A stretch of DNA of 64,000 nucleotides, taken from a virus. The notes under the pieces are model-generated. The model was not told where the DNA came from. It saw only the letters and a program-made list of their open reading frames with translations, and made no database searches. This document shows, piece by piece, positions 3,200 to 63,953 of the stretch (position 1 is the stretch's first letter; the number at the start of each line of letters is the position of its first letter). The stretch is taken from the IMG/VR virus record IMGVR_UViG_3300030060_007200. One strand, written 5' to 3'. Both the position numbers and the translations under genes were made by a program.

Positions 3200-5122
3200 T
3201 TATGTATCGAATCCTACAATAAAAGTTGTATCATAATCTAATGATTTTTTTATAGCTCGTGATAATTTACCTACAGCTAATAACCTAGCATTGTCGTCAT
3301 ACAAACCTATTGTTGTCACATAAGGTGACCAGGCAGAGCCTGTTGTAAATGGGTGTATTGTTCCTAGCTTTGGGTCATCGATTATTGTTGGATTCATTGT
3401 AAAACCGTATTCTCTTTCTTTTATATGACAAGCATATTCATGTTCTATTATTGTATGTGTATTTTTGAATGATAAAGTACATTCTGAAAATATATTATCT
3501 ACTGCAGTTGTATAGTTTGTTGACGGAGCTGTAAATGTTAATATTCCGTGATTGTAAAATACATTACCTACTTTATTTTCCATAGTTGGATATGTAGCTG
3601 TCCAACCAGCCTCTGCAGCTGTTATATTTTTACTAAACATCATTACATTGCTGACAGCACCTTTGAAGTGATTTGTAAATTCTGTTGCAGGTCTAAATTT
3701 TCTAGAATATCTTGTTCTTTTATCTCTAAATCTAAATTTTGTACCTGCATCTCTAGCTCTTGCTCCTACAATGATATCGCTGTCATTATATAGTGAGCCG
3801 GAAGGTATACTTCCGTGAGACTGTAATACACCATTAACATACAAATACGCAAAGCTTCCAGATTTTGTTAGCAGCACGCTATCAAATGCGTTACTCGTAC
3901 TAACAACTGTAGGACTATTAAGATATAGTGTATCAACACCATCGCTTATTGCAGCTTGATATGTACCTGCATTACCTATATTAGCACTACCTGAATTTTG
4001 TATTGCGTGTTTATTGACATATCTTATAGAAAAAGGAAACGAACCTTTTTTATGCGGGTCGTGTTTTGATATTATATGGTTGTGATGATATTGGTCTGTA
4101 AAATCTGCAGATTGAGATTCCTGAAAACGAGAAGAAGATACTCGTACATAAACTGCAAAATCATCAGCCTCAGTATTTCTTCTTGTTGGTCTTGTACGAA
4201 AATCAAATTGATGCCTATGTTTTATTCTCATCATACTTTGGTTTTCTATGTTTATTCGAGACTTAGTTGTTGCAGGTTTTATACCATCTAATTCAATAAA
4301 TGTTTGCTCAGCAACTGAGCTTGTTTGAGGTCTTATATTGTGAGCCTCTACACGATTTGGATATCTCGATCTTTCAAAAAATCTTGTTTTGTTTTTAAGG
4401 TTGAAATATTCCTTTCCATTATCTCTATAATAACTACTACTTGCTAATGCGTTTATACTATGAGCGCTTAATTTACTTCCAGCTTGGTTGTACATATCTA
4501 CAAAGTTAAGAGCTACCAAACTTGTTGTTACAAAACTTATTGATTCTGTAGGATTACCATAAAGCTGTACACTATTATCTATAAGATTTCCAAATCCATC
4601 ATCTGTTATTGTTGTACTACCTGACTGTATTTTTACAGAACCTTTTTTAATTGATTCGCCAAACATTTTTTGTGGTACTGATATTATCTTTGCAGATTTT
4701 CCAAGTGTTCTTATTTCTTTTTCATATCCACTATTATCTAATGTCCAACATGGGTCATCAGGATTTGTATAGTACATACCTTGTAACGAATCGTGTAAAG
4801 CTCTTTTGTAAAAGTGGTTTGTTGTTACTTCATGAGGAGAGGTTGTTAAAGCATTTAGATAAGAGCCGTATTCAGTAGGAGTAAAGTCACTTCCATCATA
4901 TTGTGTCTCATAAGAAAAAACACTTAATGAAACTATTCTTATATCTTGTGGTACATTAAAAGTAGAGCCTGTTATCCACGGGTCGAAAACTCTAAACTGC
5001 TCGTAACCTTTTTCAAAATAACTACCAGTATAATTTGTTAAACGTACTGTATATTCCTTGTTGGCCTCGAACGGAGTAATTTGTATTTCGTCCTTTCTAA
5101 ATTTCCTAAATATGCCGGACAT
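3200..5122 (-). CDS. Virion structural protein with LamG/ConA-like domain
   Basis: LamG-like YLYVNG...IIVGAR...FKGAVSNVMMF. C-terminal YVTTIGLYDDNARLLAVGKLSRA is shared with the next gene. Confidence 0.7.
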   Translation of the reverse strand: MSGIFRKFRKDEIQITPFEANKEYTVRLTNYTGSYFEKGYEQFRVFDPWITGSTFNVPQDIRIVSLSVFSYETQYDGSDFTPTEYGSYLNALTTSPHEVTTNHFYKRALHDSLQGMYYTNPDDPCWTLDNSGYEKEIRTLGKSAKIISVPQKMFGESIKKGSVKIQSGSTTITDDGFGNLIDNSVQLYGNPTESISFVTTSLVALNFVDMYNQAGSKLSAHSINALASSSYYRDNGKEYFNLKNKTRFFERSRYPNRVEAHNIRPQTSSVAEQTFIELDGIKPATTKSRINIENQSMMRIKHRHQFDFRTRPTRRNTEADDFAVYVRVSSSRFQESQSADFTDQYHHNHIISKHDPHKKGSFPFSIRYVNKHAIQNSGSANIGNAGTYQAAISDGVDTLYLNSPTVVSTSNAFDSVLLTKSGSFAYLYVNGVLQSHGSIPSGSLYNDSDIIVGARARDAGTKFRFRDKRTRYSRKFRPATEFTNHFKGAVSNVMMFSKNITAAEAGWTATYPTMENKVGNVFYNHGILTFTAPSTNYTTAVDNIFSECTLSFKNTHTIIEHEYACHIKEREYGFTMNPTIIDDPKLGTIHPFTTGSAWSPYVTTIGLYDDNARLLAVGKLSRAIKKSLDYDTTFIVGFDT

Positions 5123-5139
5123 ATTATACTCCTATTTTT

Positions 5140-6372
5140 TTAGAACTCAAGTTTAATTCGTATCAATGCTTCTCGTGTAAATGATTTCAATAGCGGTTTA
5201 CTTAATTTTGCTGTTGCCAATAATTCGTTATTGTCATTGTACATACCAACTGTTGTAATATAAACCTTAGGGTCTCTATACATTGATGGGTGTGCAAACT
5301 GTCCTTGTGAACCTGATGTAAATGTTGGATTATTACTAAAATTATATTCAGCGTTTTTAAGTCTACAGAAATAATGAGTTGCAAAAACTCTTTCAGAGCT
5401 ACGTGCTGCAAATGAACTAGATGTTTGTCCTTGTGGTATTAGTGAGTTAGAGCCTGTAAAGAATCCAACAACTCTATTTAATGTAGGGTTAACGTTTGTA
5501 CTACCTACGTTATTAGCATTACCAGGACACCAACAGTAATTTGTTTCTACTATATCCATTTGTAAAAGTCTAGGTGAAAGCATGATAACTCCCATATCTG
5601 GATAAAACCATCCATATTGAGTTGGGTTTGTTATTGATGCGCCTCCTGCATCTGTGATTCCTATAGAACCTGTTACTACTTTATATAGCTGTCCATAATC
5701 TCCAAGAGTTGCCAAGTTAGCTGCACTGTCATCTGTAAGTGTAATTTGAGAACCTACCGTTGGATTTGGTGAGTGACCTGCATGTATATAAGAACTAGAT
5801 ATTGTAAGCTCCCAATTACCTGGGTCAATTCTTTCCTTAAACCTTTGTCTGTTAACGTTAATAAAAATAGATGATGTTTCATTAACACTGTTTATTGTAA
5901 ATTGCTCATCACCTGGAGCTAAAAGTAAATTTGAATATTGAGAGTAAACAGCCTTCGTAGGTGTTTTACCAGATGAAGCATATTGACTAATAGGTGCCGA
6001 GCCTGAACCAAAATAATGTCCATAAGCAATTGCAAATTGAGGTTCTGCATCTGCAGTTACCTGTGGTTCGTCTCTATAAAATTCTTTGTAATATAATCCT
6101 GATGCTGCGTCTTGAACTGATGATGTGAATATTTCAGACTGTGACATCTTTAATTCACCATCATTGTTTGACCACATTGCTGCAGTAATAATATCAGCTT
6201 GTGCGTTTTCTACAATATCGCCAGGCTCAAATTGTGTATATAATGGTGTTATAGGTCTTCTATAAGGTCTAGATAATCTTCGATTACTTCGTCCTACTCG
6301 TGTAGAAAAGTTTCTTGATAATGCGCCTTCTCTTTCAAAACGCGGTGATGTGCCTCTATCGTATGTTGCCAT
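5140..6372 (-). CDS. Virion structural protein (baseplate/tail-fibre attachment type)
   Basis: C-terminal YITTVGMYNDNNELLATAKLSKP is paralogous to 3200..5122; baseplate gene context. Confidence 0.65.
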   Translation of the reverse strand: MATYDRGTSPRFEREGALSRNFSTRVGRSNRRLSRPYRRPITPLYTQFEPGDIVENAQADIITAAMWSNNDGELKMSQSEIFTSSVQDAASGLYYKEFYRDEPQVTADAEPQFAIAYGHYFGSGSAPISQYASSGKTPTKAVYSQYSNLLLAPGDEQFTINSVNETSSIFINVNRQRFKERIDPGNWELTISSSYIHAGHSPNPTVGSQITLTDDSAANLATLGDYGQLYKVVTGSIGITDAGGASITNPTQYGWFYPDMGVIMLSPRLLQMDIVETNYCWCPGNANNVGSTNVNPTLNRVVGFFTGSNSLIPQGQTSSSFAARSSERVFATHYFCRLKNAEYNFSNNPTFTSGSQGQFAHPSMYRDPKVYITTVGMYNDNNELLATAKLSKPLLKSFTREALIRIKLEF

Positions 6373-6384: not shown

Positions 6385-7062
6385 TTATTTTTCAAAGTAA
6401 TAATCTTCTACTAAATTGGTAGCTGTAGCTTCCTTCTTAACAGTTACATTAAGCGTAACATATCCACCAGTTTCATTACCGATTATAGTAAGAGTTGTTG
6501 TTAAATCTGCTGTAGGTTGTGGTTTAGCAACTAACTCGAATCTTGTACCTACAGATGTTACAGAATTACCAGTATCTCCAATATAATCTGCAGTTGTAGG
6601 AGCCATTCGTGAAGCTATTTTTCCACCAGGTGCAACATTAAGATATGCAGCATCTGAATTAGCTAATATTGCTGTATATCCATAAGTTCTATTACCATTT
6701 GCAAAGTTTGCAGTGTTAGGCGTTACAGGTGCTTTATCTCCACCGTATGTTAACGTTATATCAGTAACACCAACAGTTACCTGTGGCATTCTTGAAATAT
6801 TTTTTGGTAATGTTACCAATTTGTGTTTCATTACGTAATTTTCGTTTGGTACAGCTTCTACTAACGGCATAGCCTCTATTGCTTGTCCATAATAATTTGT
6901 ACCTAGTTGATGATTAACATCCCATAAACCATAATCGATTTCGTCATCTGCTAGTGCAAATTGAGTGATATTAAAAAACTCACTTCCTTTTGCCAACAAT
7001 TCTCTACCCTTCTTTGTAAGAATTGCATCGACTGTGATTGTTGTTTTATCTAAATATCCCAT
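6385..7062 (-). CDS. Virion structural protein
   Basis: N-terminal DAILTKKGRELLA..ITQFALADDE resembles tail-collar/fibre-attachment N-termini; GGAG RBS and late motif upstream. Confidence 0.6.
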   Translation of the reverse strand: MGYLDKTTITVDAILTKKGRELLAKGSEFFNITQFALADDEIDYGLWDVNHQLGTNYYGQAIEAMPLVEAVPNENYVMKHKLVTLPKNISRMPQVTVGVTDITLTYGGDKAPVTPNTANFANGNRTYGYTAILANSDAAYLNVAPGGKIASRMAPTTADYIGDTGNSVTSVGTRFELVAKPQPTADLTTTLTIIGNETGGYVTLNVTVKKEATATNLVEDYYFEK

Positions 7063-7116: not shown

Positions 7117-10100
7117 TTATCTTATGCTACTATCAGCGTTTACTGCCTGTATCTGACTTTGTCCAGCAGCAGGTGTTGATATTACAAGTTGATTAGGATT
7201 TGTATCTGTAATTTCAACAACAGGACCTCCATCTATTGTATCTGTAACTGGCATGTTAAAGTCAGAACCTACAAGTTTACAACCTCCATATAACACATTA
7301 TTTTTTGCAAGTGAAATATAGTCTTGATGTTCAGCTCTTTTTAACGATCGGCTAACAGGTCTTATACCTGAACGATAAAATCCTTTTGAAAGTTCAGTTC
7401 CTGGATATCCACTCATACTAACTGATGAAAATTTACCACCTGTACTTCCACTATTACTCATGTTGTTTAACAATCCCATATAATGATATTCATAATCCCA
7501 ATATATTCTTGAAGCTCGTTGGTGATGGAAATATTTTATATTACCTCTATCATTCCATCTAGCTATTTTTACAGGACGTCGCACATGTCCATAAGCTGGG
7601 TGGTCGAATGCAAACTGCTTGTTCTTAAATGTGTCTGCCGAAAGTACCGATTGCGATGTATGTCTGTGCTGAAGATTGTCAAATCCAAAATACGTATCAG
7701 GTACAGTTTGTGCTGTAGTATCTGGTCCATAACCTATTGAAGCAGATAATGTACCATCAGATATATTAGATAAAAAGTCACCAGCATTTTCATAACTAGC
7801 TCCACCAATAACAACACTAGCGTTTGGATTATTATCCGGTAATGGCCCTCCGTTTGATGATGAGGGTACGTACCAAACCATGTTATCCCAATAATATCTT
7901 GAGCCATCTATATCTAAATCATGACCGTGGTGTTTTCTTGCATCTATATGCGCCTCGACCTCACCCGACGACTGGTCAGTTACAACAACACCATAACTAG
8001 AACCTGATTCAAGTGTTTGATATCCTGTGTGCGCTTGTATTGCCTTTGTTCCTGCTTGGTCTGAACCTGTTGACCATGCAAGATTTTTAGGGTTCTGCCA
8101 CTGGTGAAAAGGTCCACCTAGTGTTGTTGTATTTGCAGTAACTCTATATTTGCTTATATCAAGTGTACCTCCATAGTGGTTTTCCTCTACATATTCCTGT
8201 AAATTTTCAACCTTAGGTCTTTCCAATAAGTTTGCCTTAACCAAAAGTCCTACTTGAGCATTTGCTCTTGCAGGTATTAACATCTCTATCTGTCTAAATA
8301 ATGTATGGTCAATAAATTTAAGAATTCTTAAAAATTCAAAAAAGTTATATGGATTTGTGTGTTTTTTCCAATAAAAATTACGAAGTACTCTAAGTCTTTT
8401 ATATTCATCGTCTCTATAATCTAAAGGATTACCTACATAATTATGAAAATCAGCTCCACCTAATTCGTGAGCAATATCTAAATCTATTTCAAAGTGAGGT
8501 GCAAAATATACACCAAGTCTATTTGAGTCTAAAGGAGCTTTATCAAACTGGCTTCTTTCAACCTTCATTTTATCACTTAATCTACCTTGAAGCTTAGCAC
8601 TTTCTATTCTAACCTTGTCACTTATTTCTCTTGTTCTTACAAGGTCAGGCATTGCAGTATAATGTCTCTCTTCTTCGGTTGGCCAATCCTTGTTAACATC
8701 ACCATAAAACCTAGATGCGGTAGCATGTGTTTGATGATGAGGGAAAGAAGGCGTAAGACTTGAATATTGGTCGTATAATGTATTTACAGCCTGGTACTCA
8801 TCACCTGTGCTTGTCATATAGCGATGATTTACTTGAGGTGCTGATGATGGTAATACAACTCCATTTATCATACCTGCAGCGTGCCAGTTTGAAGATGTAA
8901 AGAAGTTAGCATTTGCTCTATTAAGGTCTAAACCTAAACTATGTCTTGCAGCTAATTGAGCGAACGACGATGTTGCAGAAACACCTTCTATAGAAAGCGG
9001 CGCTCTAACATGATTCCAAAATGGAGAAGGGTCACTACTTGTAGCATTATGATTGACGTGGTTAGGGTTCCAATAATTAAAGTGATATTGATGAGGTGGT
9101 ACATACCAAAATCTTATTTCTTGTAAAGAACCTGTATAACCTTGAGTAGGATTTCCAAGCGAGCTATTTAACTGGCCTGAACCCCATTGTATTTTTGTTA
9201 TAGCATCGTAAGACTCTTCATTAGAAACTGACAAGCTAAACGAACCTGTATGTGTTATTCTCGAATCTGAATGGTCGGGTGACTTTGCAACTGTTAATTC
9301 AAATATCTGTGCACCGGCTTGAAAGTTTGCCTTGTCTTTATTTCTACAAATCATTACTGTCCACCAATCATTATCATATAAAGGTAGATGTTCAGTACTT
9401 GCTGTTACATTTGTATTTGTAAATACATTGTTATTTATATCAACATATTCTAATCTTCCATATTTGTAATATGCTGATTTTGGATTTGTTGCTGATGGAT
9501 GAGGTATAATTCTAAGATTTGTTCTAGGGTTGACAGCACCGCTTTCATCATATCCTACAAATATAGATTGAGATACAGGGTGCCAGGTGTTGAACCTAAA
9601 TTCAATTGCATCAGCTGCTCTATCACCAGCACTAACTGTTTGGTATGGATGTACAGCCAATCTTGGCATTGGTGTTTCTAATATTGTTTGGTTATCCTTT
9701 CCAAATTCTAGTGAATAAGAAAACTTATCATATTTAACATAAGAATCTGTTTTCTTGGCTTTTTGCGGACCTCCATACTCAAATATTCTTAAAAGCGTTG
9801 GAGGCAAACCGTATGTTGTTGTTAGTGCACGTATACCTCTTTCACCACCTTTTGTTTTCATAAGATATGGAAGGTTGTTAAGCATTCTCTTCCAAGTCTC
9901 TCTAGATAAATCCTCGCGATTATTTAATTTTTTAGTTTGGTCTAAAGATGCGGTTATGTATTTAACAGAACCTGAGCGTACTACGTGCGCACCAGAACCT
10001 GATATATGTACGGCAAATGACTGGCTTGAATTTGCGTATGTGCCATCTTCATTTTGACCAAGCGCGTATTCCCAAAGGTCTGTAAAATGAAAACCTTGAT

Positions 10101-11544
10101 ATGATTCCCAACCAAATGACGATAATACATTGTATACAAGGTCTTTTGATAGTCCTTCATATAATGGATTACTACGCTTGTGTATTTGCATTGTGTAGTC
10201 AAGATAATTATATACAGTATCGAAATGGTGAGCTACCATATTTACAAATAATAAATAATTTTTATTATCCTCTCCATCACCTGCCTCTCTAATATGGAAA
10301 GGTATTGTATTTTCTAAATTGTGAGGATTATGTACATCATAATCTAATGCAACTGTTGATTGAGATGCAAACCAATTAACTGCTATAACATCATCTATTT
10401 TTCTATTTGTATATGGTTCAATGTCGTTAGATTTCGGCCACGTTCTTTCTACTCTTGAACCTTCACCCTGGTCAGGTTCGAACGAAGATGATTGAAAATA
10501 AAGATAACTTTCATATCCGTCAAATCCTTGAATAACCTCTTCTTTCTTTATTTTATACGAACCTAAATTTTGTTTTGTATGATAACCTGTATTAGACATT
10601 GCATTTATAGTTGCAATCTGACCATCATAATATTCAATCAGTCCTAATTTATACTTAAAGTTTTCTAATCTTTCTTTTGCAGAGCTAAAATGTACAAAGT
10701 TTTTATAGTTGTAATAATCTATATTTAGATGTGCTTGTTCATAAGCAGAGCCTGATGTGTATTTATTCATCAAGCTTTGTTTTGTTGTAGGGTTAGTACC
10801 TAATATAGAATTCCAAGTTTCCCAACCAGTCTCTCCACCAACACCTTTTGTTATATCCAATGTAAAATTAGGACCAGCAATAGCTTCTCCTACTGCAGGT
10901 TTTTCTTCAGGTATTAGTTTAATCATCTCAGTGTGAGATGTTACAACCTCTTTAACAATCCAAACTTGTTTCTTTAATTGTACGTCGCTAGGAAGAGGTT
11001 TGTATAATTTAAGAAGTATTCCATCATCATCATCTGACTGCCAGTTTGTTATAAGATATACATTGTTATCGCCACAATTAAGTAACAAATCCTGCCAATT
11101 ATCATCTACAAAATCTTCTATATTTTTACTTTGTAGTTCTTCAAACTGTTGTAAAAATTCTTCATCTGCAGAAGTTGTTCGTAATCTAATCTCTGTTCTA
11201 GAATCCGAAATTTCTGCCACATGCAATCCATTGTTTTCATTGTATGAGCCTAATACATCTCTAAAGAAATTATAGTGTACCTTATATAAACCTGAACTAA
11301 AACCTAAGTCCCTTATATCATTATGTATATCTAATTCTACTCTAGGTCTTCTTCTTTTTCTTCCTCTCTTTATATATCTATCAATTCTAAACGTATCGAT
11401 ATCATATTCTGTTGCCAGTAATGTTTCACCACCATATACATGAAGTTCGCACAGGTCAATCTCACCTTGTCCAAAGTTTGTAAACACCTTTTTTGAAGGT
11501 AGATTTTTTAAGTCCTCTATGTCGTATCTTTCTATTCTATCCAT
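7117..11544 (-). CDS. Large baseplate/virion structural protein (gp7-like position)
   Basis: 1475 aa, three genes downstream of the gp6-like gene. LPYLMKTKGGERGIRAL resembles the baseplate wedge KGT motif; central beta-rich LamG-like segment. Confidence 0.6.
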   Translation of the reverse strand: MDRIERYDIEDLKNLPSKKVFTNFGQGEIDLCELHVYGGETLLATEYDIDTFRIDRYIKRGRKRRRPRVELDIHNDIRDLGFSSGLYKVHYNFFRDVLGSYNENNGLHVAEISDSRTEIRLRTTSADEEFLQQFEELQSKNIEDFVDDNWQDLLLNCGDNNVYLITNWQSDDDDGILLKLYKPLPSDVQLKKQVWIVKEVVTSHTEMIKLIPEEKPAVGEAIAGPNFTLDITKGVGGETGWETWNSILGTNPTTKQSLMNKYTSGSAYEQAHLNIDYYNYKNFVHFSSAKERLENFKYKLGLIEYYDGQIATINAMSNTGYHTKQNLGSYKIKKEEVIQGFDGYESYLYFQSSSFEPDQGEGSRVERTWPKSNDIEPYTNRKIDDVIAVNWFASQSTVALDYDVHNPHNLENTIPFHIREAGDGEDNKNYLLFVNMVAHHFDTVYNYLDYTMQIHKRSNPLYEGLSKDLVYNVLSSFGWESYQGFHFTDLWEYALGQNEDGTYANSSQSFAVHISGSGAHVVRSGSVKYITASLDQTKKLNNREDLSRETWKRMLNNLPYLMKTKGGERGIRALTTTYGLPPTLLRIFEYGGPQKAKKTDSYVKYDKFSYSLEFGKDNQTILETPMPRLAVHPYQTVSAGDRAADAIEFRFNTWHPVSQSIFVGYDESGAVNPRTNLRIIPHPSATNPKSAYYKYGRLEYVDINNNVFTNTNVTASTEHLPLYDNDWWTVMICRNKDKANFQAGAQIFELTVAKSPDHSDSRITHTGSFSLSVSNEESYDAITKIQWGSGQLNSSLGNPTQGYTGSLQEIRFWYVPPHQYHFNYWNPNHVNHNATSSDPSPFWNHVRAPLSIEGVSATSSFAQLAARHSLGLDLNRANANFFTSSNWHAAGMINGVVLPSSAPQVNHRYMTSTGDEYQAVNTLYDQYSSLTPSFPHHQTHATASRFYGDVNKDWPTEEERHYTAMPDLVRTREISDKVRIESAKLQGRLSDKMKVERSQFDKAPLDSNRLGVYFAPHFEIDLDIAHELGGADFHNYVGNPLDYRDDEYKRLRVLRNFYWKKHTNPYNFFEFLRILKFIDHTLFRQIEMLIPARANAQVGLLVKANLLERPKVENLQEYVEENHYGGTLDISKYRVTANTTTLGGPFHQWQNPKNLAWSTGSDQAGTKAIQAHTGYQTLESGSSYGVVVTDQSSGEVEAHIDARKHHGHDLDIDGSRYYWDNMVWYVPSSSNGGPLPDNNPNASVVIGGASYENAGDFLSNISDGTLSASIGYGPDTTAQTVPDTYFGFDNLQHRHTSQSVLSADTFKNKQFAFDHPAYGHVRRPVKIARWNDRGNIKYFHHQRASRIYWDYEYHYMGLLNNMSNSGSTGGKFSSVSMSGYPGTELSKGFYRSGIRPVSRSLKRAEHQDYISLAKNNVLYGGCKLVGSDFNMPVTDTIDGGPVVEITDTNPNQLVISTPAAGQSQIQAVNADSSIR

Positions 11545-47915: not shown

Positions 47916-47916
47916 T

Positions 47917-51145: not shown

Positions 51146-51382
51146 CTATTTTGTCATTCTTTGTGTCCAATCTTTTAGCTTATCCTGCAGTTGTTTTTTA
51201 ATTCCAGGTCCTCTAAAAGTTCCGCCTATCTTCATTGCGTCTTTGATAAAGCTATTATATTCTTTGTTCCATTTTACTACCAAAGTTTTTTCAAAATCAT
51301 TTAATAATTTTGCTCGCTCTTTGTCTTCGCCTTTTGAGATTGTTCCGTCAGGATTAGCCTCAATAATTTTTTTTAATTTCAT
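51146..51382 (-). CDS. Small protein with MKLKKIIE leader
   Basis: Leader motif. Confidence 0.6.
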   Translation of the reverse strand: MKLKKIIEANPDGTISKGEDKERAKLLNDFEKTLVVKWNKEYNSFIKDAMKIGGTFRGPGIKKQLQDKLKDWTQRMTK

Positions 51383-57611: not shown

Positions 57612-57856
57612 TAGTTTACCCTTACTTTTAATCCTTTTATTTCTGTTAAAAATTCTTCAACAGTTAGCGTTTTGCCTTTATCAGTTTTTATTTTTACATC
57701 TGGTAGCATTTCAGGTTTACTATCTACCATTTTCATTAAAATTTTTAATCCTGCTCCTGCCCAAAATACACCAAATCCTGTATTCTCTCCTAATAAATTA
57801 GAATCAAAATAAACTTCCTTTTCAGTATCTCCTGGCATCATTACAAAATATGTCAT
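57611..57856 (-). CDS. Hypothetical protein
   Basis: Intact ORF coupled to the sugar cluster. Confidence 0.6.
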   Translation of the reverse strand: MTYFVMMPGDTEKEVYFDSNLLGENTGFGVFWAGAGLKILMKMVDSKPEMLPDVKIKTDKGKTLTVEEFLTEIKGLKVRVN

Positions 57857-58569
57857 TTTTTATATTCCAATATTAAATCAAGAGCTTTACTTTCAAACTC
57901 TTCAGCCAATATTTCTGTATTAGGTATTACACAATGACCTCCAATACCTCCTTCAGGTGGATATAAATTAGGTCTTACAACATTCTGCATATCCAAACCA
58001 TAATATCCTAAATTATATGAAAGAGTCCATTTGTTAATAACGTCAAAATCTATATTGTGTTTATCACACATCTTTTTCATTTCACCATGCCATGCTATGC
58101 AAAGACCATAATATGTCGTACTTGTTAACTTGGCAAGTTCAGTAGAATCTGAATTGTGTACAGGATAAAATACTATTCCTAAATCTTCATAATGCTCTTT
58201 CGCAAGAGCTAGGTCCACAGGGTCATTATATCCTATAAATTTAACAAACTTTTCAATACCTTCTTTTAGATTAGGATGCACACCTCTTACAGGTGAATGT
58301 ACACAAGGTCTTTTTATTTGTTTTGTTGTACCAACAGGTACCGTAGAATGAATTATTGTTATTTTTGGTAAATACTCATCGATATAATCATTGACTACAT
58401 TTACGAATTCTTCACCGTGAGGCAAACAAATATCTAACACATCTACCTTTCCGTGTATTGTATTGAAATTTATATCTCGAATCATAGGCTCTTTACCTTT
58501 TGCCTTATATACCTCTGCAAGTGACGAGCCTATTTCTCCATTTCCTATTATTGCAATTCTAGTTTCCAT
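57853..58569 (-). CDS. NDP-sugar 6-dehydrogenase family protein (lacks the C-terminal domain)
   Basis: GNGEIG Rossmann motif, STVPVGTT, HSP, ELAK and GGIGGHCV. Confidence 0.85.
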   Translation of the reverse strand: METRIAIIGNGEIGSSLAEVYKAKGKEPMIRDINFNTIHGKVDVLDICLPHGEEFVNVVNDYIDEYLPKITIIHSTVPVGTTKQIKRPCVHSPVRGVHPNLKEGIEKFVKFIGYNDPVDLALAKEHYEDLGIVFYPVHNSDSTELAKLTSTTYYGLCIAWHGEMKKMCDKHNIDFDVINKWTLSYNLGYYGLDMQNVVRPNLYPPEGGIGGHCVIPNTEILAEEFESKALDLILEYKK

Positions 58570-58945
58570 TTAATATCTCCGTTGTTGAATAACCTTCTAT
58601 TCTTTCAAAAAATCTTACATGTTGAGCGTGCTCATCTCCAATTACTTCTTTGTTTTTCCAGTCAGAACCTACAATTAAAACATGAGGTTTTACATTAGAA
58701 ATTATCTCATTTAATTTTTCTGCAGTGTCGAAAACAAAAACCTTGTCGATATATTTTATTGATAAAAGCATCTCAACTCTATCTTCTAATTTATTAAAAG
58801 GTCTATTTTCACCTTTATCTTTTTTTACTTTTTCATCAGAATCAATTCCTACATACAATTTATTACCTAGTGTTTTTGCATGTTTGAATAATTCTATGTG
58901 ACCTCGATGTAATACATCAAAGCATCCATTTGTCCATACTGTCAT
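58559..58945 (-). CDS. hldC: Heptose-1-phosphate nucleotidyltransferase (RfaE domain II)
   Basis: TNGCFDVLHRGH, KGENRPFN, GSDW and GYSTT. Confidence 0.88.
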   Translation of the reverse strand: MTVWTNGCFDVLHRGHIELFKHAKTLGNKLYVGIDSDEKVKKDKGENRPFNKLEDRVEMLLSIKYIDKVFVFDTAEKLNEIISNVKPHVLIVGSDWKNKEVIGDEHAQHVRFFERIEGYSTTEILNGN

Positions 58946-59667
58946 ATTGTTACTACACCTCTTTTTTGTACAACTTCTGAAGCACATTTATTTGCAAAAT
59001 CAATCGATTCTTCAACAGAATTTGTAATTATATATTTGTATACCAAACCTGCAAGGAATGTATCACCAGCTCCTGAAACATTTGATACCTTTACTTTCTT
59101 CTTTGTTTTGAACGCATCATTTCTATACCAAGCACCTTCAGCTCCTTTTGTTACGATTACATTATCAGAATCGTAGTCTGTATTGCTGTTCCATTCATGT
59201 TCGTTAATTTTAATAAAATCTATATCGTGACACCATTTGCCTAGTTTCTTTTTTGTATCTAAAAACGTAGGACATTTACATATCTCTGCAACATTACTAA
59301 TAATATCTTCTGTTAAAAATCCTTTATTATAGTCAGATATTACTACAGCATCAAATTTATATTGTTCTAAATATTCATTAAAATCTAATTCACATTTACG
59401 TGCAAAATCATTTTCATCGAACCTCATAACCATTTGGCCTGATTTGTCATCTACATATCTTGTCTTTTTTATTGGAGAAGAATTTGTTACGATGTATGTT
59501 TCACAGCCTAATGATTCTAAATTTGCAACTACATTACCTGCCATTCCAGGATTTTCTGTTTCACACACAGGATTCAAAACTGGTACTGGTGCCTCAGGAC
59601 AAAGTCTATTTATATTACAATAAATAAATTTATCAATGCAGCTGTCACCTATAACTAAAACTCTCAT
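58942..59667 (-). CDS. hldA: Heptose-7-phosphate kinase (RfaE domain I, PfkB family)
   Basis: VIGD..D, RLCPEAPVPV, GMAGNV, ISDYNKG and SGAGDTFLAG. Confidence 0.88.
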   Translation of the reverse strand: MRVLVIGDSCIDKFIYCNINRLCPEAPVPVLNPVCETENPGMAGNVVANLESLGCETYIVTNSSPIKKTRYVDDKSGQMVMRFDENDFARKCELDFNEYLEQYKFDAVVISDYNKGFLTEDIISNVAEICKCPTFLDTKKKLGKWCHDIDFIKINEHEWNSNTDYDSDNVIVTKGAEGAWYRNDAFKTKKKVKVSNVSGAGDTFLAGLVYKYIITNSVEESIDFANKCASEVVQKRGVVTI

Positions 59668-60026
59668 TGACTATCTCCTTTTCTTACTCTATAACTATCA
59701 GGGTCAAAGTGTTGAGTTGAAACTTCAAATATTTCTGAATTATCTTGAAGAGCTACCAGTTGATGTGGCTGTCCTCTTTCAATTGTAATACATGTACCAA
59801 TACCTATAACTGTCGAATGCTCTTCTGCACTTTCAGTATCTATCCACCTATATTCGAAACTACCTTTTCCTACATACCAAGATTCTTTTTTAATTACATG
59901 ATAATGCATTGAAAATTTATTTCCTTTTTTATTAAATCTTAAAAGCTTTCCACAATATTCTTCATCATTATGAATCCATATCTCTTGTCCCCAAGCTTTA
60001 TCTACAACTTTTGGTTTTACTATCAT
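59664..60026 (-). CDS. Cupin-fold sugar isomerase
   Basis: KAWGQE, SMHYH..K.ESWYV, PHQL, EVST and DSYRVRKGD. Confidence 0.85.
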   Translation of the reverse strand: MIVKPKVVDKAWGQEIWIHNDEEYCGKLLRFNKKGNKFSMHYHVIKKESWYVGKGSFEYRWIDTESAEEHSTVIGIGTCITIERGQPHQLVALQDNSEIFEVSTQHFDPDSYRVRKGDSQ

Positions 60027-60799
60027 AATAAAATTTCCATTTTCCTTTTTATATCTTTCACAGAAGGATTCCAATCTTCACAAATAATATATTCTACATT
60101 TGTATTAAAAGGATTCCAGTCTTTTGTATATCTTTTCTTATTCGATTGTCCATAAGGTTTGCCGCACCAAGTCAGCTGGTTCAATCCACATAGTGATGCA
60201 AGATGCATAGGTCCTGACGAAGGTCCTATAATTAAATCTGCGCTTTTCATATAATCCTGTATTTCAATATCTCTTAAATCTTCTGTACCTTCTATATGGT
60301 GTGCAGCATTTTTTGTACCTACACTCGCAAATTTGTATTCTGGAAAGCTATCTACAATTTCAGAAAAATTATCAATACTCCAATTTCTTATTTGAGTCCC
60401 TGCCTTATTTGTATTTCTTGCATGTATTAAAATTTTTATATCTGTATCTATTTTATTTCCATATTCTATAAAGCTTTGTTGCAAACTAGGTCTCCAACCA
60501 TGTTCAGGAGTATAATGTGTTAACATGTGATTGTATGGAATATATGTACAACCTTTTGGAGGTTTAGGTATATTTGTCATTTTTCCACGATTAAAATAAG
60601 AATCTGGTTCGTATGAATCTGGTTCATATGAAATATATTCATCACAAAAATCTTCATATAAAAATTTTGTAGATTTTCTTCCTGACACTATTACTTTTTC
60701 AAAATCATTTACCTCAACATATTTTCTTAAAATACCTTGCCAGCAAAATAATTCCCAACCAAATTCTCCAACCCATGGTCCTGCAAATAGTGTTTTCAT
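60023..60799 (-). CDS. Glycosyltransferase family 9-like (heptosyltransferase-like)
   Basis: RNWS..F and ADLIIGPSSGPMHLASLCG. Confidence 0.78.
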   Translation of the reverse strand: MKTLFAGPWVGEFGWELFCWQGILRKYVEVNDFEKVIVSGRKSTKFLYEDFCDEYISYEPDSYEPDSYFNRGKMTNIPKPPKGCTYIPYNHMLTHYTPEHGWRPSLQQSFIEYGNKIDTDIKILIHARNTNKAGTQIRNWSIDNFSEIVDSFPEYKFASVGTKNAAHHIEGTEDLRDIEIQDYMKSADLIIGPSSGPMHLASLCGLNQLTWCGKPYGQSNKKRYTKDWNPFNTNVEYIICEDWNPSVKDIKRKMEILL

Positions 60800-60832
60800 A
60801 TCTTTAATATAACAAATTTTTATGAATTAAGT
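60800..60832 (-). promoter_or_regulatory. Internal early/middle-type promoter in the sugar cluster
   Basis: TTAATTCATAAAATTTGTTATATTAAAG matches the 22141 promoter. Confidence 0.55.
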
Positions 60833-61602
60833 AAATAATCTTTGTACTTTTTTGTTCCTAATTTAACATTATTTTTTGGTTGCCAACCTGGCATAAATTT
60901 TTCTTTGTCAGCCTGTGTAAAATATTGATACCATCCAGGTATTTTATCTGGTGTATGATATTCATAATCTATACCTATACCTCCAACAAGACTTTCAAAT
61001 GTTTCTGCATTTCCTGAACCTACATCGAACAAACCTCTTTCAAGAGTTGCAGCATGTATATTAGCATCTACAACATCATCGATATATACAAAATCTCTTT
61101 TTATATCACCTGGAAATAATTTGAACTCTCCTGCTTTCCAAGCTTGATATGCAACTGATGCCATTTTTCCTTTGTGTTCCTCGCCTGGTCCATAAACATT
61201 AAAATATCTTAAAGCAACAAATCTTTCGCAAGCCTTTAATCCATAGTCCTCTGCAAGTAATTTAGACCATCCATAAATATTGTTAGGTATACCATCACCT
61301 CCTCCGTAATTTGCAGCAGAGCTTGAATACACAACCTTAACATTGTATTTTCTTGCTAAATCAAATATTCTTTTACTTAATGTGTAATTATAGTAAAGCA
61401 TCTCATTCGAGTCCTGTAATGTAGTATCAGATATTGCACCAACATGAAATATAACATCACATTGTTTAATAATTGTTTCTAAATTATAATCTTCATAAAC
61501 GCCATCTCTTTCCAAACAATAAGCGTAATGACCTAATTTTTTTAATTTTTTTAATAGATTAGAACCTATAAATCCTTTATGTCCTGTTAACAATGCTTTC
61601 AT
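60820..61602 (-). CDS. hldD: ADP-L-glycero-D-manno-heptose 6-epimerase
   Basis: TGHKGFIG, HVGAISDTT, SSAANYG, YGWSK, RYFNVYGPGEEHKGKMASV and YQYFTQAD. Confidence 0.88.
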   Translation of the reverse strand: MKALLTGHKGFIGSNLLKKLKKLGHYAYCLERDGVYEDYNLETIIKQCDVIFHVGAISDTTLQDSNEMLYYNYTLSKRIFDLARKYNVKVVYSSSAANYGGGDGIPNNIYGWSKLLAEDYGLKACERFVALRYFNVYGPGEEHKGKMASVAYQAWKAGEFKLFPGDIKRDFVYIDDVVDANIHAATLERGLFDVGSGNAETFESLVGGIGIDYEYHTPDKIPGWYQYFTQADKEKFMPGWQPKNNVKLGTKKYKDYLLNS

Positions 61603-62300
61603 AATCCTTTTATCATTCTCCATCTTTTTTTATCTAATATCATTTGCTCTAATTTATTGCTTATACCTTTTTCAAATATACCAGCCCCTCCATAGTGTAT
61701 CGCATACGAATCAAATCTATTTGCATTGTTGTTCCAGTCTTCTGAAAACATTGTCATATGATTCCACTTATATGATAATTCATGTACCTTATGTTTGTAT
61801 TTGTTTATTAGATATCCCATGTGTACATCGTCATATCCAAAACCTATCCAATATTCTCCATTTATCTTTTCATATATGTTACTGTGGCATTTAGATGTTA
61901 ATAAAAATGCAGAATCAATATATCCACTTTGCCATCCTACGTTACCCCATTTTGCCTGTGCCTGCATAATACATTGTCTTCTTGCTGCTGCTCTACTTCC
62001 TTTGTCTTCATAAACACTAGCTATACAATCATAAGGTACAATATCAAATATGTTAGGACAGTCAGGTGAAAGAAGTACATCTGAATCTATGTGAAGTATT
62101 CTATCGTATTTTTCATGAAGTTGTTTATGTTTGAAAATTCTGTAGTGCCATTTTCCATCACCATCATTACAGTCTGACTTATGACTCATTATTTCAAAAT
62201 CAGCACCAACATTTTCTGCATATTTTTTTATTATCGGATGTGTTATATCTGTCCAATTTTTTATACCTTCATCTGCTCTAGTTGTAATTAAAAGCTTCAT
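61599..62300 (-). CDS. GT-A glycosyltransferase (GT8-like)
   Basis: YDRILHIDSDVL (DxD), KWN and IHYGG. Confidence 0.78.
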   Translation of the reverse strand: MKLLITTRADEGIKNWTDITHPIIKKYAENVGADFEIMSHKSDCNDGDGKWHYRIFKHKQLHEKYDRILHIDSDVLLSPDCPNIFDIVPYDCIASVYEDKGSRAAARRQCIMQAQAKWGNVGWQSGYIDSAFLLTSKCHSNIYEKINGEYWIGFGYDDVHMGYLINKYKHKVHELSYKWNHMTMFSEDWNNNANRFDSYAIHYGGAGIFEKGISNKLEQMILDKKRWRMIKGL

Positions 62301-63208
62301 TTTATCTCGTCCATAAATTTAAGTCTTCTACAAGTGTTATTTCTTTTTAATTCTAGACAATCTTCTGATATAAAATATTTAATCATATTTTCAAAATGGT
62401 CAGCTTTTTCTATTTCAATATTTTTTACATTTCCATTTTTAATAATCTGTATAGGATTTGTACATTCAGGTGTTCTAGAAAATGCTCGTTGAAGTTTTAG
62501 TACCTCATCTTCACAACTTATTGTTATTTCATTTCTATATGCCTGGCCAAATCCAAAATTTATATTGGCTATAGAATCCATATATGTAAAACATATTGTA
62601 CCTCTTTCTATTACCTCAGACTCAATACATGTAAATGTATGGCCTTCAGGTGTGTCTCCTAATATCCTATAAACAAAACTTAAAGGATATATAAGTGAGT
62701 CGTGTATTGAACCACCGCCTAGCTTCTTTGAATATCTTATATCATTTTCATTTGCAAAATAAGGAAAACAGAAAGTTGCATCGATATGTTTAACATCACC
62801 CATATCTTTTAATAATTCATCTATTTTATTATGTACTGGGTGGAATTCATACATCAACGCCTCCATACATTTTAAGCCTTTTTGCTTTGCTATGTTAAAT
62901 AATTCTACAGCTTCTATTGTTGATGTTGTAAAGGTTTTTTCCATAAGAAGATGCTTTCCTGATAATAAAACTTTTTTGCCCCATTCGTAGTGAAGAGCAG
63001 GTGGCAATGAAACATATATTATATCTACGTCACTTTTTAATAACTCATCGTATGTATATGGGTTTGTATAATATTCAAATCCCCAATCGATTGCTTTGTT
63101 AATATCTCTTGACGCTACACCATAAAGCGTTAAATCTTTTACTTTTTTTATTGCAGGGATTACACATCTCTTTGCAATTGATGAACAACCTAAAATTCCT
63201 ATTTTCAT
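62297..63208 (-). CDS. Gfo/Idh/MocA oxidoreductase, NDP-hexose 3-ketoreductase-like
   Basis: GCSSIA, VASR, LLMEK, DIRY..LGGGS..D..YP. Confidence 0.85.
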   Translation of the reverse strand: MKIGILGCSSIAKRCVIPAIKKVKDLTLYGVASRDINKAIDWGFEYYTNPYTYDELLKSDVDIIYVSLPPALHYEWGKKVLLSGKHLLMEKTFTTSTIEAVELFNIAKQKGLKCMEALMYEFHPVHNKIDELLKDMGDVKHIDATFCFPYFANENDIRYSKKLGGGSIHDSLIYPLSFVYRILGDTPEGHTFTCIESEVIERGTICFTYMDSIANINFGFGQAYRNEITISCEDEVLKLQRAFSRTPECTNPIQIIKNGNVKNIEIEKADHFENMIKYFISEDCLELKRNNTCRRLKFMDEIK

Positions 63209-63209
63209 T

Positions 63210-63953
63210 TTAACAATGTGCTATAATACTTCTTAAGCAATGACCTACCCAAGCATCTTGCTTACAGCATTCCTTTATTTGATGTAAACTCATCCAAATA
63301 AAATTGTCGTTAACTAAATCAATTTCACAATCAACTTCAACAATCATATTTAGATTTCTTTTATTATATAATCTACCTCCATCTTCAGCAAGCCATTTTT
63401 TGTAAATTACATTGTATTTATCGTCCTGAAAATATTCAAGATAATTAGGTGTGTTACCTAAATGTGCTTTTTTAATATTACTAAATGTAGCTTGAAGTGT
63501 AGGACTTATTTGTACCATATTAGGATTACCTGGTTCACATTTTGCCTCAACCAAATAATGAGGTACACCTTCAAATCTTTTTCTTAATACTCCTAAAATA
63601 CCACCATCCCATCCTGTCTGCTTTACAATAGGCTGGTCCCAACCTCCTTTGCATTCACGAACATCAGTTGAAACTCTTAATCCTAATATAGAAAAGAACT
63701 CTCCGCTATCATGAAATATTTTTTCGCCATCAATATTCCATTTTTCACATTCGCTCAAAGATATTTCCTCGACAGTCATTTGTTTTTTATTGATGATATT
63801 TTTATACCATTTTTCAATTTGCTCAAACGTATGAAATAAAGACCAATCATTGAGAGACTCAAAGTTAAATTCAAGTGTATTTATATCAGTATCTATTCCT
63901 AACTTTGCAACCTCATTTTTATATTCTGAAAATTTTTCCTTGTATGTTTTCAT
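63210..63953 (-). CDS. NDP-hexose 2,3-dehydratase (single-domain)
   Basis: HDSGEFFSI.G, WDQPIV.Q, EPGN..QISPTLQAT.SN and EDGGRLYNKRN.NM. Confidence 0.87.
   Translation of the reverse strand: MKTYKEKFSEYKNEVAKLGIDTDINTLEFNFESLNDWSLFHTFEQIEKWYKNIINKKQMTVEEISLSECEKWNIDGEKIFHDSGEFFSILGLRVSTDVRECKGGWDQPIVKQTGWDGGILGVLRKRFEGVPHYLVEAKCEPGNPNMVQISPTLQATFSNIKKAHLGNTPNYLEYFQDDKYNVIYKKWLAEDGGRLYNKRNLNMIVEVDCEIDLVNDNFIWMSLHQIKECCKQDAWVGHCLRSIIAHC

What the first reader, a model, noticed from the sequence alone, without database searches (positions are those of the whole stretch)
3200..63953. Candidate phage virion-glycosylation system: a [S/T]-[G/A/S/Q]-S motif plus encoded heptose/deoxysugar machinery
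Seen: the tripeptide [ST][GASQ]S (TGS, SGS, SAS, TAS, SQS, SSS) recurs through virion-type proteins. Manual counts are about 26 in the 1312-aa protein, 21 in the 1475-aa, 11 in the 640-aa, and 9 each in the 410-aa and 391-aa proteins. A rough composition-based expectation for the 1312-aa protein is only about 6. The motif is scarce in ligase, primase, the AAA ATPase and the S/T/G-rich 1099-aa exported protein. The same window encodes HldA/HldC/HldD, a GT9-like and a GT8-like transferase, and deoxysugar enzymes. Established: ADP-heptose is the donor for serine O-heptosylation of bacterial autotransporters by Aah/TibC. Inference: the motif is a sequon for cytoplasmic, phage-encoded O-glycosylation of the virion surface.
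Basis: partly seen in the sequence, partly recalled or inferred. Interest (0 to 1): 0.88.

Follow-up and report, generated by a model that had tools for sequence, protein, structure and literature searches.

The report
Serine tag on phage tail proteins
The outer tail proteins of this uncultured marine phage and its relatives carry the short motif Ser/Thr-(Gly/Ala/Ser)-Ser about four times too often; it is probably, though not chemically shown to be, the attachment signal for a phage-made sugar coat, and the likely enzymes are a conserved transferase pair rather than the heptose genes.

Summary
Observation confirmed. [ST][GASQ]S occurs 27, 21, 11, 10 and 9 times in the 1312-, 1475-, 640-, 410- and 391-aa proteins, against 6.1, 4.5, 3.2, 2.4 and 2.6 expected. 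The control [ST][GASQ]T is not enriched, codons vary, and local shuffles give the same result.

The excess holds across a large marine/freshwater myophage clade. That clade includes the cultured Microcystis phage Mel-JY01 and Flavobacterium phage immuto. Sites turn over rapidly while their number is kept. A homologous protein in phage LR756508 lacks the excess, and so do T4 fibres. This argues against a fold-dictated motif.

Interpretation partly supported. The heptose/Aah-TibC link fails: Mel-JY01 and immuto have the motif but no heptose adenylyltransferase. What is conserved is an adjacent pair of GT4-like GT-B glycosyltransferases (468 + 426 aa). The pair lies about 6-9 kb beyond the window end and is predicted to form a heterocomplex. 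It is present in every relative that has the excess and could be tested. LR756508 lacks the 426-aa partner.

No chemistry exists, and the association rests on one negative relative plus T4. This scan has reported the same tag and a transferase pair before on other DNA; I treated those notes as leads. Confidence in a glycosylation sequon is about 0.5.

The parts
38940..42878 (-). 1312-aa protein of unknown fold and location, the richest carrier of the motif (27 sites)
   Evidence: 27 observed against 6.1 expected; seven homologues (31-96% identity) all carry 22-28 sites against 6-8.5 expected. About 10 sites are conserved in position, with motif-preserving swaps (TAS/TSS, TGS/SGS, SGS/SSS). There is no Pfam or PHROG family and no match in cultured phages. 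Its virion membership is an assumption.
7117..11544 (-). 1475-aa baseplate-distal protein, 21 sites
   Evidence: Across 36 family members the mean is 21.6 sites, yet only 8 alignment columns carry the motif in at least 50% of sequences and 210 columns in under 20%. It is syntenic with Mel-JY01 and immuto downstream of the wedge.
12817..13992 (-). 391-aa protein directly after the baseplate wedge, 9 sites; it contains a CBM-like jelly-roll domain
   Evidence: in 69 homologues the mean is 8.8 sites, and only 3 columns are conserved in at least 50%; in 150 representatives, 1904 observed against 476 expected. AF2 model with pLDDT 79.5, all 9 sites in coil at strand ends or hairpin loops; the best folds are polysaccharide-binding CBMs (8wab, 7vbo).
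5140..6372 (-). 410-aa distal tail protein, 10 sites
   Evidence: Homologues in G014-G016 are also enriched.
3200..5122 (-). 640-aa fibre-type protein with a ConA-like/Laminin_G_3 domain, 11 sites
13995..15920 (-). Baseplate wedge (gp6/J-like); it anchors the module and is not enriched (1 against 1.2)
   Evidence: (phrog_10646, phrog_219, phrog_6).
11537..12817 (-). 426-aa Ig-like protein between two enriched proteins, with zero sites (internal negative control)
   Evidence: Its counterparts in more than 60 loci also carry about 0 sites.
6385..7062 (-). 225-aa protein with zero sites (internal negative control)
57853..63953 (-). The part of a ~15-kb glycan gene cluster that lies inside the window. 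It holds an NDP-sugar dehydrogenase-like gene, an HldC-like adenylyltransferase, an HldA-like kinase, a WbuC-type cupin, a 258-aa faint GT9, an HldD-like epimerase, a 233-aa weak GT8, a Gfo/Idh/MocA reductase and an NDP-hexose 2,3-dehydratase.
   Evidence: The cluster continues beyond base 64000 (locus L006). That stretch holds a sulfotransferase, DegT, a methyltransferase and a Glyco_trans_1_2 gene. Then comes the conserved pair: 426 aa (L006:2352-3632) and GT4 468 aa (L006:946-2352). In window numbering these would be about 70.3-73.0 kb. This lineage-specific cargo is not shared with Mel-JY01 or immuto.

Best explanation
The tripeptide [S/T]-[G>A,S,(Q)]-S is the acceptor signal for cytoplasmic O-glycosylation of the phage's outer baseplate and fibre proteins. 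It is usually flanked by an aromatic residue at -2, Val/Ile/Ala at -1 and Leu/Phe/Tyr after it, with Pro and charged residues disfavoured.

The proposed initiating enzyme is a conserved heterodimeric pair of GT4-like GT-B glycosyltransferases (468 aa + 426 aa). The pair is encoded at the head of the glycan cluster, about 6-9 kb past the window end.

The variable genes behind the pair would then supply and extend a lineage-specific glycan. In this phage they encode heptose-type, 2-deoxy/amino-sugar, methyl- and sulfo-transferase functions.

- Shown: the motif statistics, their conservation and turnover, the distribution among proteins and phages, and the fold and adjacency of the enzyme pair.
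- Inferred: that the pair acts on these proteins, that Ser is the modified residue, and that the heptose is part of the glycan.
For: 1. **The excess is strong and directional.** It is 4-5x in five proteins, while [ST][GASQ]T is at or below expectation. It survives local shuffles and is not a DNA repeat.

2. **An extended context holds over 1888 sites.** Trp is 4.9x enriched at -2, Val 2.4x at -1 and Leu 2.2x at +1. Pro is at 0.1x at +1, and K/R/D/E are depleted.

3. **The number of sites is maintained, not their positions.**
   - The 391-aa family has 8.8 sites per protein, but only 3 columns are conserved in at least 50% of sequences. Sites in variable columns are still 3.4x over expectation.
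   - The 1475-aa family has 21.6 sites per protein, 8 conserved columns and 210 rare ones.
   - In 31%-identical homologues of the 1312-aa protein, the position-3 Ser is 63% conserved against 30% for other Ser.

4. **The fold does not require it.** The LR756508 homologue is 25% identical to the window protein. Mel-JY01's homologue, at 26.5%, is equally divergent and is enriched. LR756508 has 7 sites against 2.9 expected, no better than its own xT control (5 against 1.9). It also has non-motif residues at 7 of the 8 conserved columns. T4 outer baseplate and fibres give 25 observed against 24.6 expected.

5. **It is protein-specific within the virion.**
   - The wedge, the Ig-like protein and the 225-aa protein carry about 0 sites in more than 60 loci.
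   - In immuto the capsid, portal, tape measure and replication proteins are not enriched. The tail spike has 61 sites against 21.7, and a 373-aa protein has 18 against 3.1.

6. **The enzyme pair is conserved.**
   - 468 + 426 lie adjacent and in the same order in Mel-JY01 and immuto, each time after a PD-(D/E)XK nuclease gene.
   - They are adjacent in 76 of 76 IMG/VR loci.
   - The pair is present in G002, G014, G015 and G016, and G014-G016 all show the excess.
   - The 426-aa partner is absent from the complete LR756508 record, whose lone 468-like gene has no GT-B neighbour.

7. **Both proteins look like glycosyltransferases.**
   - The 426-aa protein models as a GT-B fold (pLDDT 91.7). Its best solved match is the chlorovirus NY-2A glycosyltransferase B736L, with Foldseek E 1.8e-17.
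   - The 468-aa protein carries PF00534.

8. **Complex prediction supports binding of the two, but does not show it**.
   - Score 0.85, best of 3 controls 0.00.
   - That mark was reached by 58 of 80 solved complexes and 2 of 110 mismatched pairs. These counts hold only roughly, because my own alignments were used.
   - Runs agree in at least 94% of contacts, and partner pLDDT is at least 87.

9. **Site placement fits accessible positions.** All 9 sites of the 391-aa model lie in coil next to strand ends or in hairpin loops.
Against: - No chemical evidence of any modification exists.
- The link between pair and motif rests on one clade plus one negative relative (LR756508) and T4. Shared ancestry could therefore produce it.
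- The pair sits next to nuclease and DprA-like genes, about 58 kb from the baseplate genes. Its substrate could be something else.
- Loop placement is not discriminating. In the model 73% of all Ser are in coil, so 9 of 9 has p of about 0.06.
- Solvent exposure could not be computed.
- The hydrophobic flanks could mean partly buried strand ends.
- In immuto some fibre proteins are enriched for [ST][GASQ]T instead, so the rule may be looser than stated.
- The 1312-aa protein is not shown to be in the virion.
Confidence: 0.5

Rival explanations
1. The motif is an unmodified physico-chemical or structural preference of this clade's tail proteins. It could be a favoured strand-end or beta-hairpin turn (small residue plus hydroxyls), or a surface pattern that aids folding, solubility or polysaccharide contact. 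On this view the glycosyltransferase pair is unrelated and co-inherited.
For: All sites in the 391-aa model sit at strand ends or hairpin loops. The flanks are hydrophobic, as at strand termini. The carriers are beta-rich, CBM-like or ConA-like proteins. The association with the pair has only one independent negative.
Against: Positions are not conserved: 80 of 94 motif columns in the 391-aa family occur in under 20% of sequences. The LR756508 homologue, which shares the fold, and T4 fibres do without the motif. Thr is excluded at position 3 although it is a good turn and strand residue. Neighbouring beta-rich proteins, such as the Ig-like 426 aa, have none.
Confidence: 0.2
2. The motif marks a different event on the same proteins, such as another post-translational modification (phosphorylation, acylation, a phospho-sugar or sulfate ester) or recognition by an assembly factor. 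The GT pair would then work on another substrate, such as phage DNA or the host envelope.
For: The pair lies beside PD-(D/E)XK nuclease and DprA-like genes, and in Mel-JY01 it lies near replication genes. T4-type DNA glucosyltransferases are also GT-B enzymes (own knowledge). The window also encodes a PAP2 phosphatase-family protein, and the cluster encodes a sulfotransferase.
Against: The pair always heads a multi-gene glycan cluster with several further transferases. No flippase or polymerase family was matched among the called genes. Immuto already encodes a 7-deazaguanine DNA-modification pathway with DpdA. No protein kinase or acyltransferase was found to track the motif, although this was not searched exhaustively.
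Confidence: 0.2
3. One reading: serine O-heptosylation by a GT9-type (Aah/TibC-like) transferase using phage-made ADP-heptose.
For: The best family hits for three genes are the HldE kinase domain, the HldE adenylyltransferase domain and HldD. There is a faint GT9 hit on the 258-aa protein.
Against: All Hld hits are under the curated cut-offs. No GmhA or GmhB was seen in the cluster. The GT9 hit scores 14.8 bits against a cut-off of 22, and the protein matches no solved chain. Mel-JY01, immuto and G002 have the motif or the pair but no HldC-like gene.
Confidence: 0.07

Closest known systems
Virion glycosylation of mycobacteriophages by phage-encoded glycosyltransferases (Freeman et al. 2023, Cell Host Microbe 31:1216; seen here only as reference 80 of PMC12582341, with details from my own knowledge)
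   Same: Phage-encoded glycosyltransferases are proposed to decorate the phage's own virion proteins in the cytoplasm. The 426-aa protein has weak hits to glycosyltransferases that lie in the structural region of Arthrobacter phages.
   Different: In those phages the targets are capsid and tail-tube subunits, and no short sequon is known to me. Here the targets are outer baseplate and fibre proteins, and immuto's capsid protein is not enriched. A defined tripeptide is involved. The enzyme genes lie about 58 kb from the tail genes. Nothing has been shown chemically here.
GtfA/GtfB O-GlcNAc transferase complex of serine-rich-repeat adhesins (own knowledge)
   Same: Two adjacent, distantly paralogous GT-B proteins are predicted to form a heterocomplex. 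The acceptors are serines in small-residue contexts (S-A-S, S-G-S), and the modification would be cytoplasmic.
   Different: GtfA/GtfB chains were not among the 50 best structural matches of the 426-aa model. Both phage proteins keep the E-x7-E region, so neither looks like a dead subunit. The acceptors are dispersed single tripeptides in folded beta-rich proteins, not long serine-rich repeats.
Chlorovirus NY-2A B736L / PBCV-1 A546L, a virus-encoded GT-B glycosyltransferase (PDB 3oy2/3oy7; PMC9614988)
   Same: It is the closest solved relative of both phage enzymes by sequence and of the 426-aa model by structure. It belongs to a virus that glycosylates its own capsid with its own enzymes.
   Different: B736L's acceptor is unknown (PMC9614988). 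Chlorovirus glycans are N-linked. Identity is only about 15%.
Bacterial autotransporter heptosyltransferases Aah/TibC acting on AIDA-I/TibA
   Same: Cytoplasmic serine O-glycosylation of beta-rich surface proteins, together with a nucleotide-heptose pathway in the same genome.
   Different: No convincing GT9/BAHT enzyme is present. The heptose genes are absent from relatives that have the motif.
General O-glycosylation of Bacteroidota, sequon D-(S/T)-(A/I/L/V/M/T) (own knowledge)
   Same: A three-residue O-glycosylation sequon in the probable host phylum. A T9SS sorting domain on the phage's 1099-aa protein points to that phylum.
   Different: The motif differs, and Asp is depleted near these sites. 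The host system works in the periplasm, whereas virions assemble in the cytoplasm.

Membership tests
BAHT family (Aah/TibC autotransporter heptosyltransferases) | A GT9-fold heptosyltransferase recognisably related to TibC/Aah | tested here: not met
   The 258-aa candidate scores 14.8 bits on PF01075 against a cut-off of 22, over the C-terminal part only. A phmmer search against all PDB chains gave no hit at E up to 1.
BAHT family (Aah/TibC autotransporter heptosyltransferases) | ADP-heptose donor pathway available | tested here: inconclusive
   The best hits are rfaE_dom_I (130 bits, cut-off 345), rfaE_dom_II (120.5, cut-off 181.5) and heptose_epim (186, cut-off 274.6). No GmhA or GmhB family appeared among the cluster genes.
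BAHT family (Aah/TibC autotransporter heptosyltransferases) | The enzyme and donor genes accompany the acceptor motif in relatives | tested here: not met
   TIGR02199 gave no match in Mel-JY01, immuto, G002 or LR756508. Mel-JY01 and immuto carry the excess.
GT4-type retaining GT-B glycosyltransferases (Pfam PF00534 clan) | Two-Rossmann GT-B fold with the C-terminal E-x7-E nucleotide-sugar region | tested here: met
   The 468-aa protein carries PF00534, PF13692 and PF20706. The 426-aa protein gives an AF2 GT-B model with pLDDT 91.7, and its best matches are 3oy2, BshA, MshA and sucrose-phosphate synthase. Some 426-family members carry PF00534. Both show E...E in the aligned EG[FY]G segment. Catalytic activity was not tested.
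GtfA/GtfB-type two-component protein O-glycosyltransferase | Two adjacent GT-B paralogues that form a heterocomplex | tested here: met
   The genes are adjacent in 76 of 76 loci. They are 22% identical over their full length, E 3e-4. The complex model scores 0.85 against a best control of 0.00. That mark was reached by 58 of 80 solved complexes and 2 of 110 mismatched pairs. Runs agree in at least 94% of contacts, and partner pLDDT is at least 87. This is a prediction only.
GtfA/GtfB-type two-component protein O-glycosyltransferase | Specific structural kinship to GtfA/GtfB, and serine-rich-repeat acceptors | tested here: not met
   No GtfA or GtfB chain appears among the 50 listed Foldseek matches. 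The acceptors are dispersed tripeptides, not repeats.
Phage virion glycosylation (mycobacteriophage type) | Glycans demonstrated on virion proteins and dependent on phage glycosyltransferases | not testable with these tools
   This needs virion glycoproteomics or staining. Only the genes and the candidate acceptor motif are seen here.
Bacteroidota general O-glycosylation | Sequon D-(S/T)-(A/I/L/V/M/T) | tested here: not met
   The enriched motif is [ST][GASQ]S. Asp is depleted at -3 (0.2x), -2 (0.5x) and -1 (0.4x).

The most novel reading that the evidence does not exclude
A previously undescribed cytoplasmic protein O-glycosylation code exists in phages. A heterodimeric GT4-like enzyme pair would recognise [S/T]-[G/A/S]-S at strand-end loops. 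It would coat the host-recognition apparatus with a strain-variable glycan whose attachment sites drift like a viral glycan shield. The carriers would be a very abundant clade of marine and freshwater myophages of about 140-280 kb, with thousands of 50%-identity protein clusters.
Probability: 0.45. Interest if true: 0.9.

Novelty: new variant of a known kind. Interest (0 to 1): 0.74.

Why it matters
If the tag is a glycosylation sequon, tail and fibre glycosylation would be a common trait of abundant aquatic phages rather than a curiosity of actinobacteriophages. It would come with a readable code, which would allow three things:

- Glycosites could be predicted from sequence.
- Host range, grazing and particle stability could be studied in relation to the glycan.
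- The enzyme pair could be used for site-directed glycosylation of proteins.

Two cultured phages carry both the tag and the pair: Flavobacterium phage immuto and Microcystis phage Mel-JY01. The question is therefore directly testable. The heptose genes are lineage-specific cargo and not the conserved machinery.

Tried and rejected
- **DNA-level repeat or codon artefact: rejected.** All six Ser codons and varied Gly/Ala codons are used.
- **Local S/T/G-rich composition: rejected.** Block shuffles and the flat [ST][GASQ]T control rule it out.
- **Generic property of myophage fibres: rejected.** T4 gives 25 observed against 24.6 expected.
- **Fold-dictated motif: judged unlikely.** Site turnover and the LR756508 homologue argue against it.
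- **Heptose as the conserved link: rejected**.
- **Identity of the 1312-aa protein: unresolved.**
  - No PHROG or Pfam family.
  - No match in cultured phages or IMG/VR.
  - No Atlas hit.
  - Neighbours in two other contigs give only conserved synteny.
- **Whole genome of the window:** not held. The window-end pattern is not in IMG/VR. The window's own contig was reached through the look-up of encoding contigs.
- **A shared TATATTTATA box:** it lies upstream of the pair's operon, the baseplate operon and the 225-aa gene, but also upstream of the ligase. It therefore says nothing about timing.
- **Secondary-structure mapping:** consistent with loops but not discriminating (p about 0.06 against all Ser).
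- **Long IMG/VR contigs without the pair (G001, G003-G010):** uninformative. They are 28-83% complete, and the pair lies 33-80 kb upstream of the wedge in phages where both are seen.
- **Freeman et al. 2023:** could not be read.

Full report
**What the window is.** All genes lie on the minus strand and G+C is about 33%. The 641-aa protein at 13995-15920 is a gp6/J-type baseplate wedge. Its nearest cultured relatives are Microcystis phage Mel-JY01 (46%) and Flavobacterium phage immuto (42%). The uncultured 484-kb phage LR756508 is also related (42%).

Gene order after the wedge matches these relatives:
- wedge
- a ~390-aa protein
- an Ig-like protein
- a ~1300-1700-aa protein
- a ~220-aa protein
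- ~400-aa and fibre proteins
- a GIY-YIG endonuclease
- primase
- an SbcCD-like protein

The window's own contig is a 143-kb Tara Oceans assembly. A 1099-aa protein carries a type IX secretion sorting domain, which points to a Bacteroidota host.

Against 1000 shuffles per protein, [ST][GASQ]S is found as follows:

| Protein | Observed | Expected |
|---|---|---|
| 1312 aa | 27 | 6.1 |
| 1475 aa | 21 | 4.5 |
| 640 aa | 11 | 3.2 |
| 410 aa | 10 | 2.4 |
| 391 aa | 9 | 2.6 |

- No other protein in the window stands out comparably; a 326-aa protein (22690-23670) reaches 4 against 1.0 (z 3.0).
- The control [ST][GASQ]T is at or below expectation in all five.
- An unbiased scan of all tripeptides ranks SGS, TGS and TAS first among well-populated words.
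- Codons vary freely.
- Shuffling within blocks of 10-40 residues, which keeps local composition, leaves z at 3.9-8.5.
- Over 1888 sites in 139 enriched proteins the flanks are biased. Position -2 is aromatic (Trp 4.9x). Position -1 is Val/Ile/Ala. The residue after the motif is Leu/Phe/Tyr. Pro is almost excluded after it, and charges are depleted. These sites are not phylogenetically independent.

**It is a clade-wide, protein-specific property.**
- Seven homologues of the 1312-aa protein, down to 31% identity, each carry 22-28 sites against 6-8.5 expected.
- In more than 60 IMG/VR loci with a wedge 44-53% identical, the same proteins are enriched. The same neighbours (wedge, Ig-like protein, ~220-aa protein) have about none.
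- The 391-aa family has 3463 clusters at 50% identity. Its 150 best representatives carry 1904 sites against 476 expected (4.0x), and 140 of 150 have z above 3. The Thr control sits at 0.81x.
- Mel-JY01 and immuto show the excess too.
- Across almost the whole immuto genome:
  - Enriched: the post-wedge protein, a tail spike (61 against 21.7) and a 373-aa protein (18 against 3.1).
  - Less clearly enriched: other distal tail proteins.
  - Not enriched: the major capsid protein, portal, tape measure and replication proteins.

**Sites drift while their number is kept.**
- In 69 members of the 391-aa family there are 8.8 sites per protein. Only 3 alignment columns carry the motif in at least half of the sequences, and 80 columns carry it in fewer than a fifth.
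- Sites in variable columns are still 3.4x over expectation.
- The 1475-aa family behaves the same way, with 8 conserved columns and 210 rare ones.
- Where a site is conserved, its substitutions stay inside the motif (TAS/TSS, TGS/SGS, SGS/SSS). The position-3 Ser is twice as conserved as other serines.

This pattern is expected for a recognition tag selected for density. It is not expected for a residue pattern imposed by a fold.

**Negative controls.**
- The LR756508 homologue of the 1475-aa protein is as divergent from the window protein (25%) as Mel-JY01's (26.5%).
- It has 7 sites against 2.9 expected, no better than its own Thr control.
- It has non-motif residues at 7 of the 8 columns conserved in the ingroup.
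- T4's outer baseplate and fibre proteins give 25 observed against 24.6 expected.

**Structure.**
- The 391-aa protein models at pLDDT 79.5 as a beta-rich protein.
- One domain resembles polysaccharide-binding modules.
- All nine sites fall in coil right after or before a strand, or in hairpin loops.
- This is compatible with accessible sites, but it is weak evidence: 73% of all serines in the model are in coil.

**The sugar genes.**
- Inside the window, the best family hits for three genes are the two HldE domains and HldD. All are below the curated cut-offs.
- The GT8 and GT9 calls are sub-threshold.
- The 258-aa 'GT9' matches no solved chain.
- The cluster runs on past the window. That stretch holds a sulfotransferase, DegT, a methyltransferase and a Glyco_trans_1_2 gene. 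It ends with a 426-aa protein and a 468-aa GT4 enzyme, which lie next to DprA-like and PD-(D/E)XK genes.
- Mel-JY01 and immuto have no heptose adenylyltransferase, and their sugar genes are different. The heptose pathway therefore cannot be what the shared motif depends on.

**The conserved pair.**
- Conservation:
  - The 468- and 426-aa genes are adjacent, in the same order and after a PD-(D/E)XK nuclease gene in Mel-JY01 and immuto, at 41-46% identity.
  - In IMG/VR, 76 of 76 loci with enough upstream sequence have the 468 homologue directly upstream of the 426 homologue, with a median gap of 30 nt.
  - Each family has roughly 8000 or more detectable members, mostly marine.
- Relationship and fold:
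  - The two are distant paralogues (22% identity, E 3e-4), and both keep the E-x7-E segment.
  - The 426-aa protein folds as a GT-B enzyme (pLDDT 91.7).
  - Its best solved match, by sequence and by structure, is the chlorovirus glycosyltransferase B736L, followed by retaining GT4 enzymes.
  - B736L's own acceptor is unknown (PMC9614988).
- Complex prediction: it supports binding of the two proteins but does not show it.
  - The score is 0.85 and the best of 3 controls is 0.00.
  - That mark was reached by 58 of 80 solved complexes and 2 of 110 mismatched pairs. The counts hold only roughly, because my own alignments were used.
  - The runs agree in at least 94% of contacts, and partner pLDDT is at least 87.
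  - The contact runs through the C-terminal tail of the 468-aa protein (residues 449-456) against strand 262-271 of the partner.

**Does the pair go with the motif?**
- Six relatives hold both a wedge homologue and the pair:
  - Mel-JY01 and immuto.
  - G002.
  - G014 (168 kb, 94% complete).
  - The complete jumbo-sized G015 (202 kb) and G016 (276 kb).
- All six show the excess.
- LR756508 is a complete record with no excess. It has only a lone 468-like gene, with no 426-type partner anywhere and no GT-B neighbour.
- Other long contigs lack the pair, but they are 28-83% complete. The pair lies 33-80 kb upstream of the wedge in phages where both are seen, so they say nothing.
- The association is therefore consistent but thin. 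It amounts to one clade, one negative relative and T4.

**Relation to earlier notes of this scan.** Several earlier follow-ups on other genomes reported a [S/T]-[G/A]-S tag that tracks 'a pair of sugar-transferase genes'. That lead made me look beyond the window end for the pair. The statistics, the adjacency, the fold, the complex prediction and the controls above were all computed here. The notes themselves are not evidence. I found no paper in the held library that describes this motif.

**Verdict.**
- The most likely meaning is an O-glycosylation acceptor tag on outer tail proteins, served by the conserved GT4-like pair (about 0.5). The heptose and deoxysugar genes would be lineage-specific glycan cargo.
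- Rivals remain open:
  - an unmodified structural preference (about 0.2);
  - another modification or another substrate for the pair (about 0.2);
- Chemistry on immuto or Mel-JY01 virions would settle it.

Noticed in passing
window 51379-54678 (-): A 1099-aa phage protein ends in a type IX secretion C-terminal sorting domain (Por_Secre_tail, E 4.9e-11). It is therefore probably exported by the host's T9SS. It is not enriched for the motif (2 against 2.7).
   Followed up: partly
window 5140-6372, 3200-5122, 7117-11544 (-): A second over-represented word, Asn-Pro-Thr, occurs 8 times against 1.1 expected in the five enriched proteins. Four of these are in the 410-aa protein, often as [GTSN]-N-P-T.
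   Followed up: partly
L005/L092 (immuto record 89378-90589, 137911-139674, 142770-144542): Some immuto fibre-type proteins are enriched for [ST][GASQ]T rather than the Ser-ending form (8 against 2.4, 14 against 5.7, 13 against 6.0). The rule at position 3 may be relaxed in some lineages, or these may simply be Thr-rich regions.
   Followed up: no
window 45365-48426 (-): Three small proteins match domains of unknown function (DUF5522, DUF5754, DUF5824). To my knowledge these are described mainly from large eukaryotic DNA viruses. Both glycosyltransferases of the pair also have a chlorovirus enzyme as their closest solved relative.
   Followed up: no
L006:740-750; window 57003, 28940, 18770, 7101 (minus strand): The word TATATTTATA lies 27-46 nt upstream of five gene starts: the small gene heading the glycosyltransferase pair, the 457-aa gene, the ligase, the first baseplate-module gene and the 225-aa gene. 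It is a candidate phage promoter box of unknown timing.
   Followed up: partly
L091 (immuto record 18607-35000): Immuto encodes a full 7-deazaguanine DNA-modification set (QueC, QueD, QueE, QueF-like, FolE, DpdA). Its DNA is therefore probably modified by a route that does not need the glycosyltransferase pair.
   Followed up: no
window 2756-3196 (-): A SegE-type GIY-YIG homing endonuclease gene sits between the last fibre gene and the primase. Mel-JY01 has one in the same place.
   Followed up: no
L008 13498-14989 (Mel-JY01 record 83441-84932): In Mel-JY01 the 468-type glycosyltransferase is annotated as two CDSs (190 and 302 aa). The tblastn match also comes in two pieces. This may be a frameshift, a sequencing error or a genuinely split gene.
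   Followed up: no
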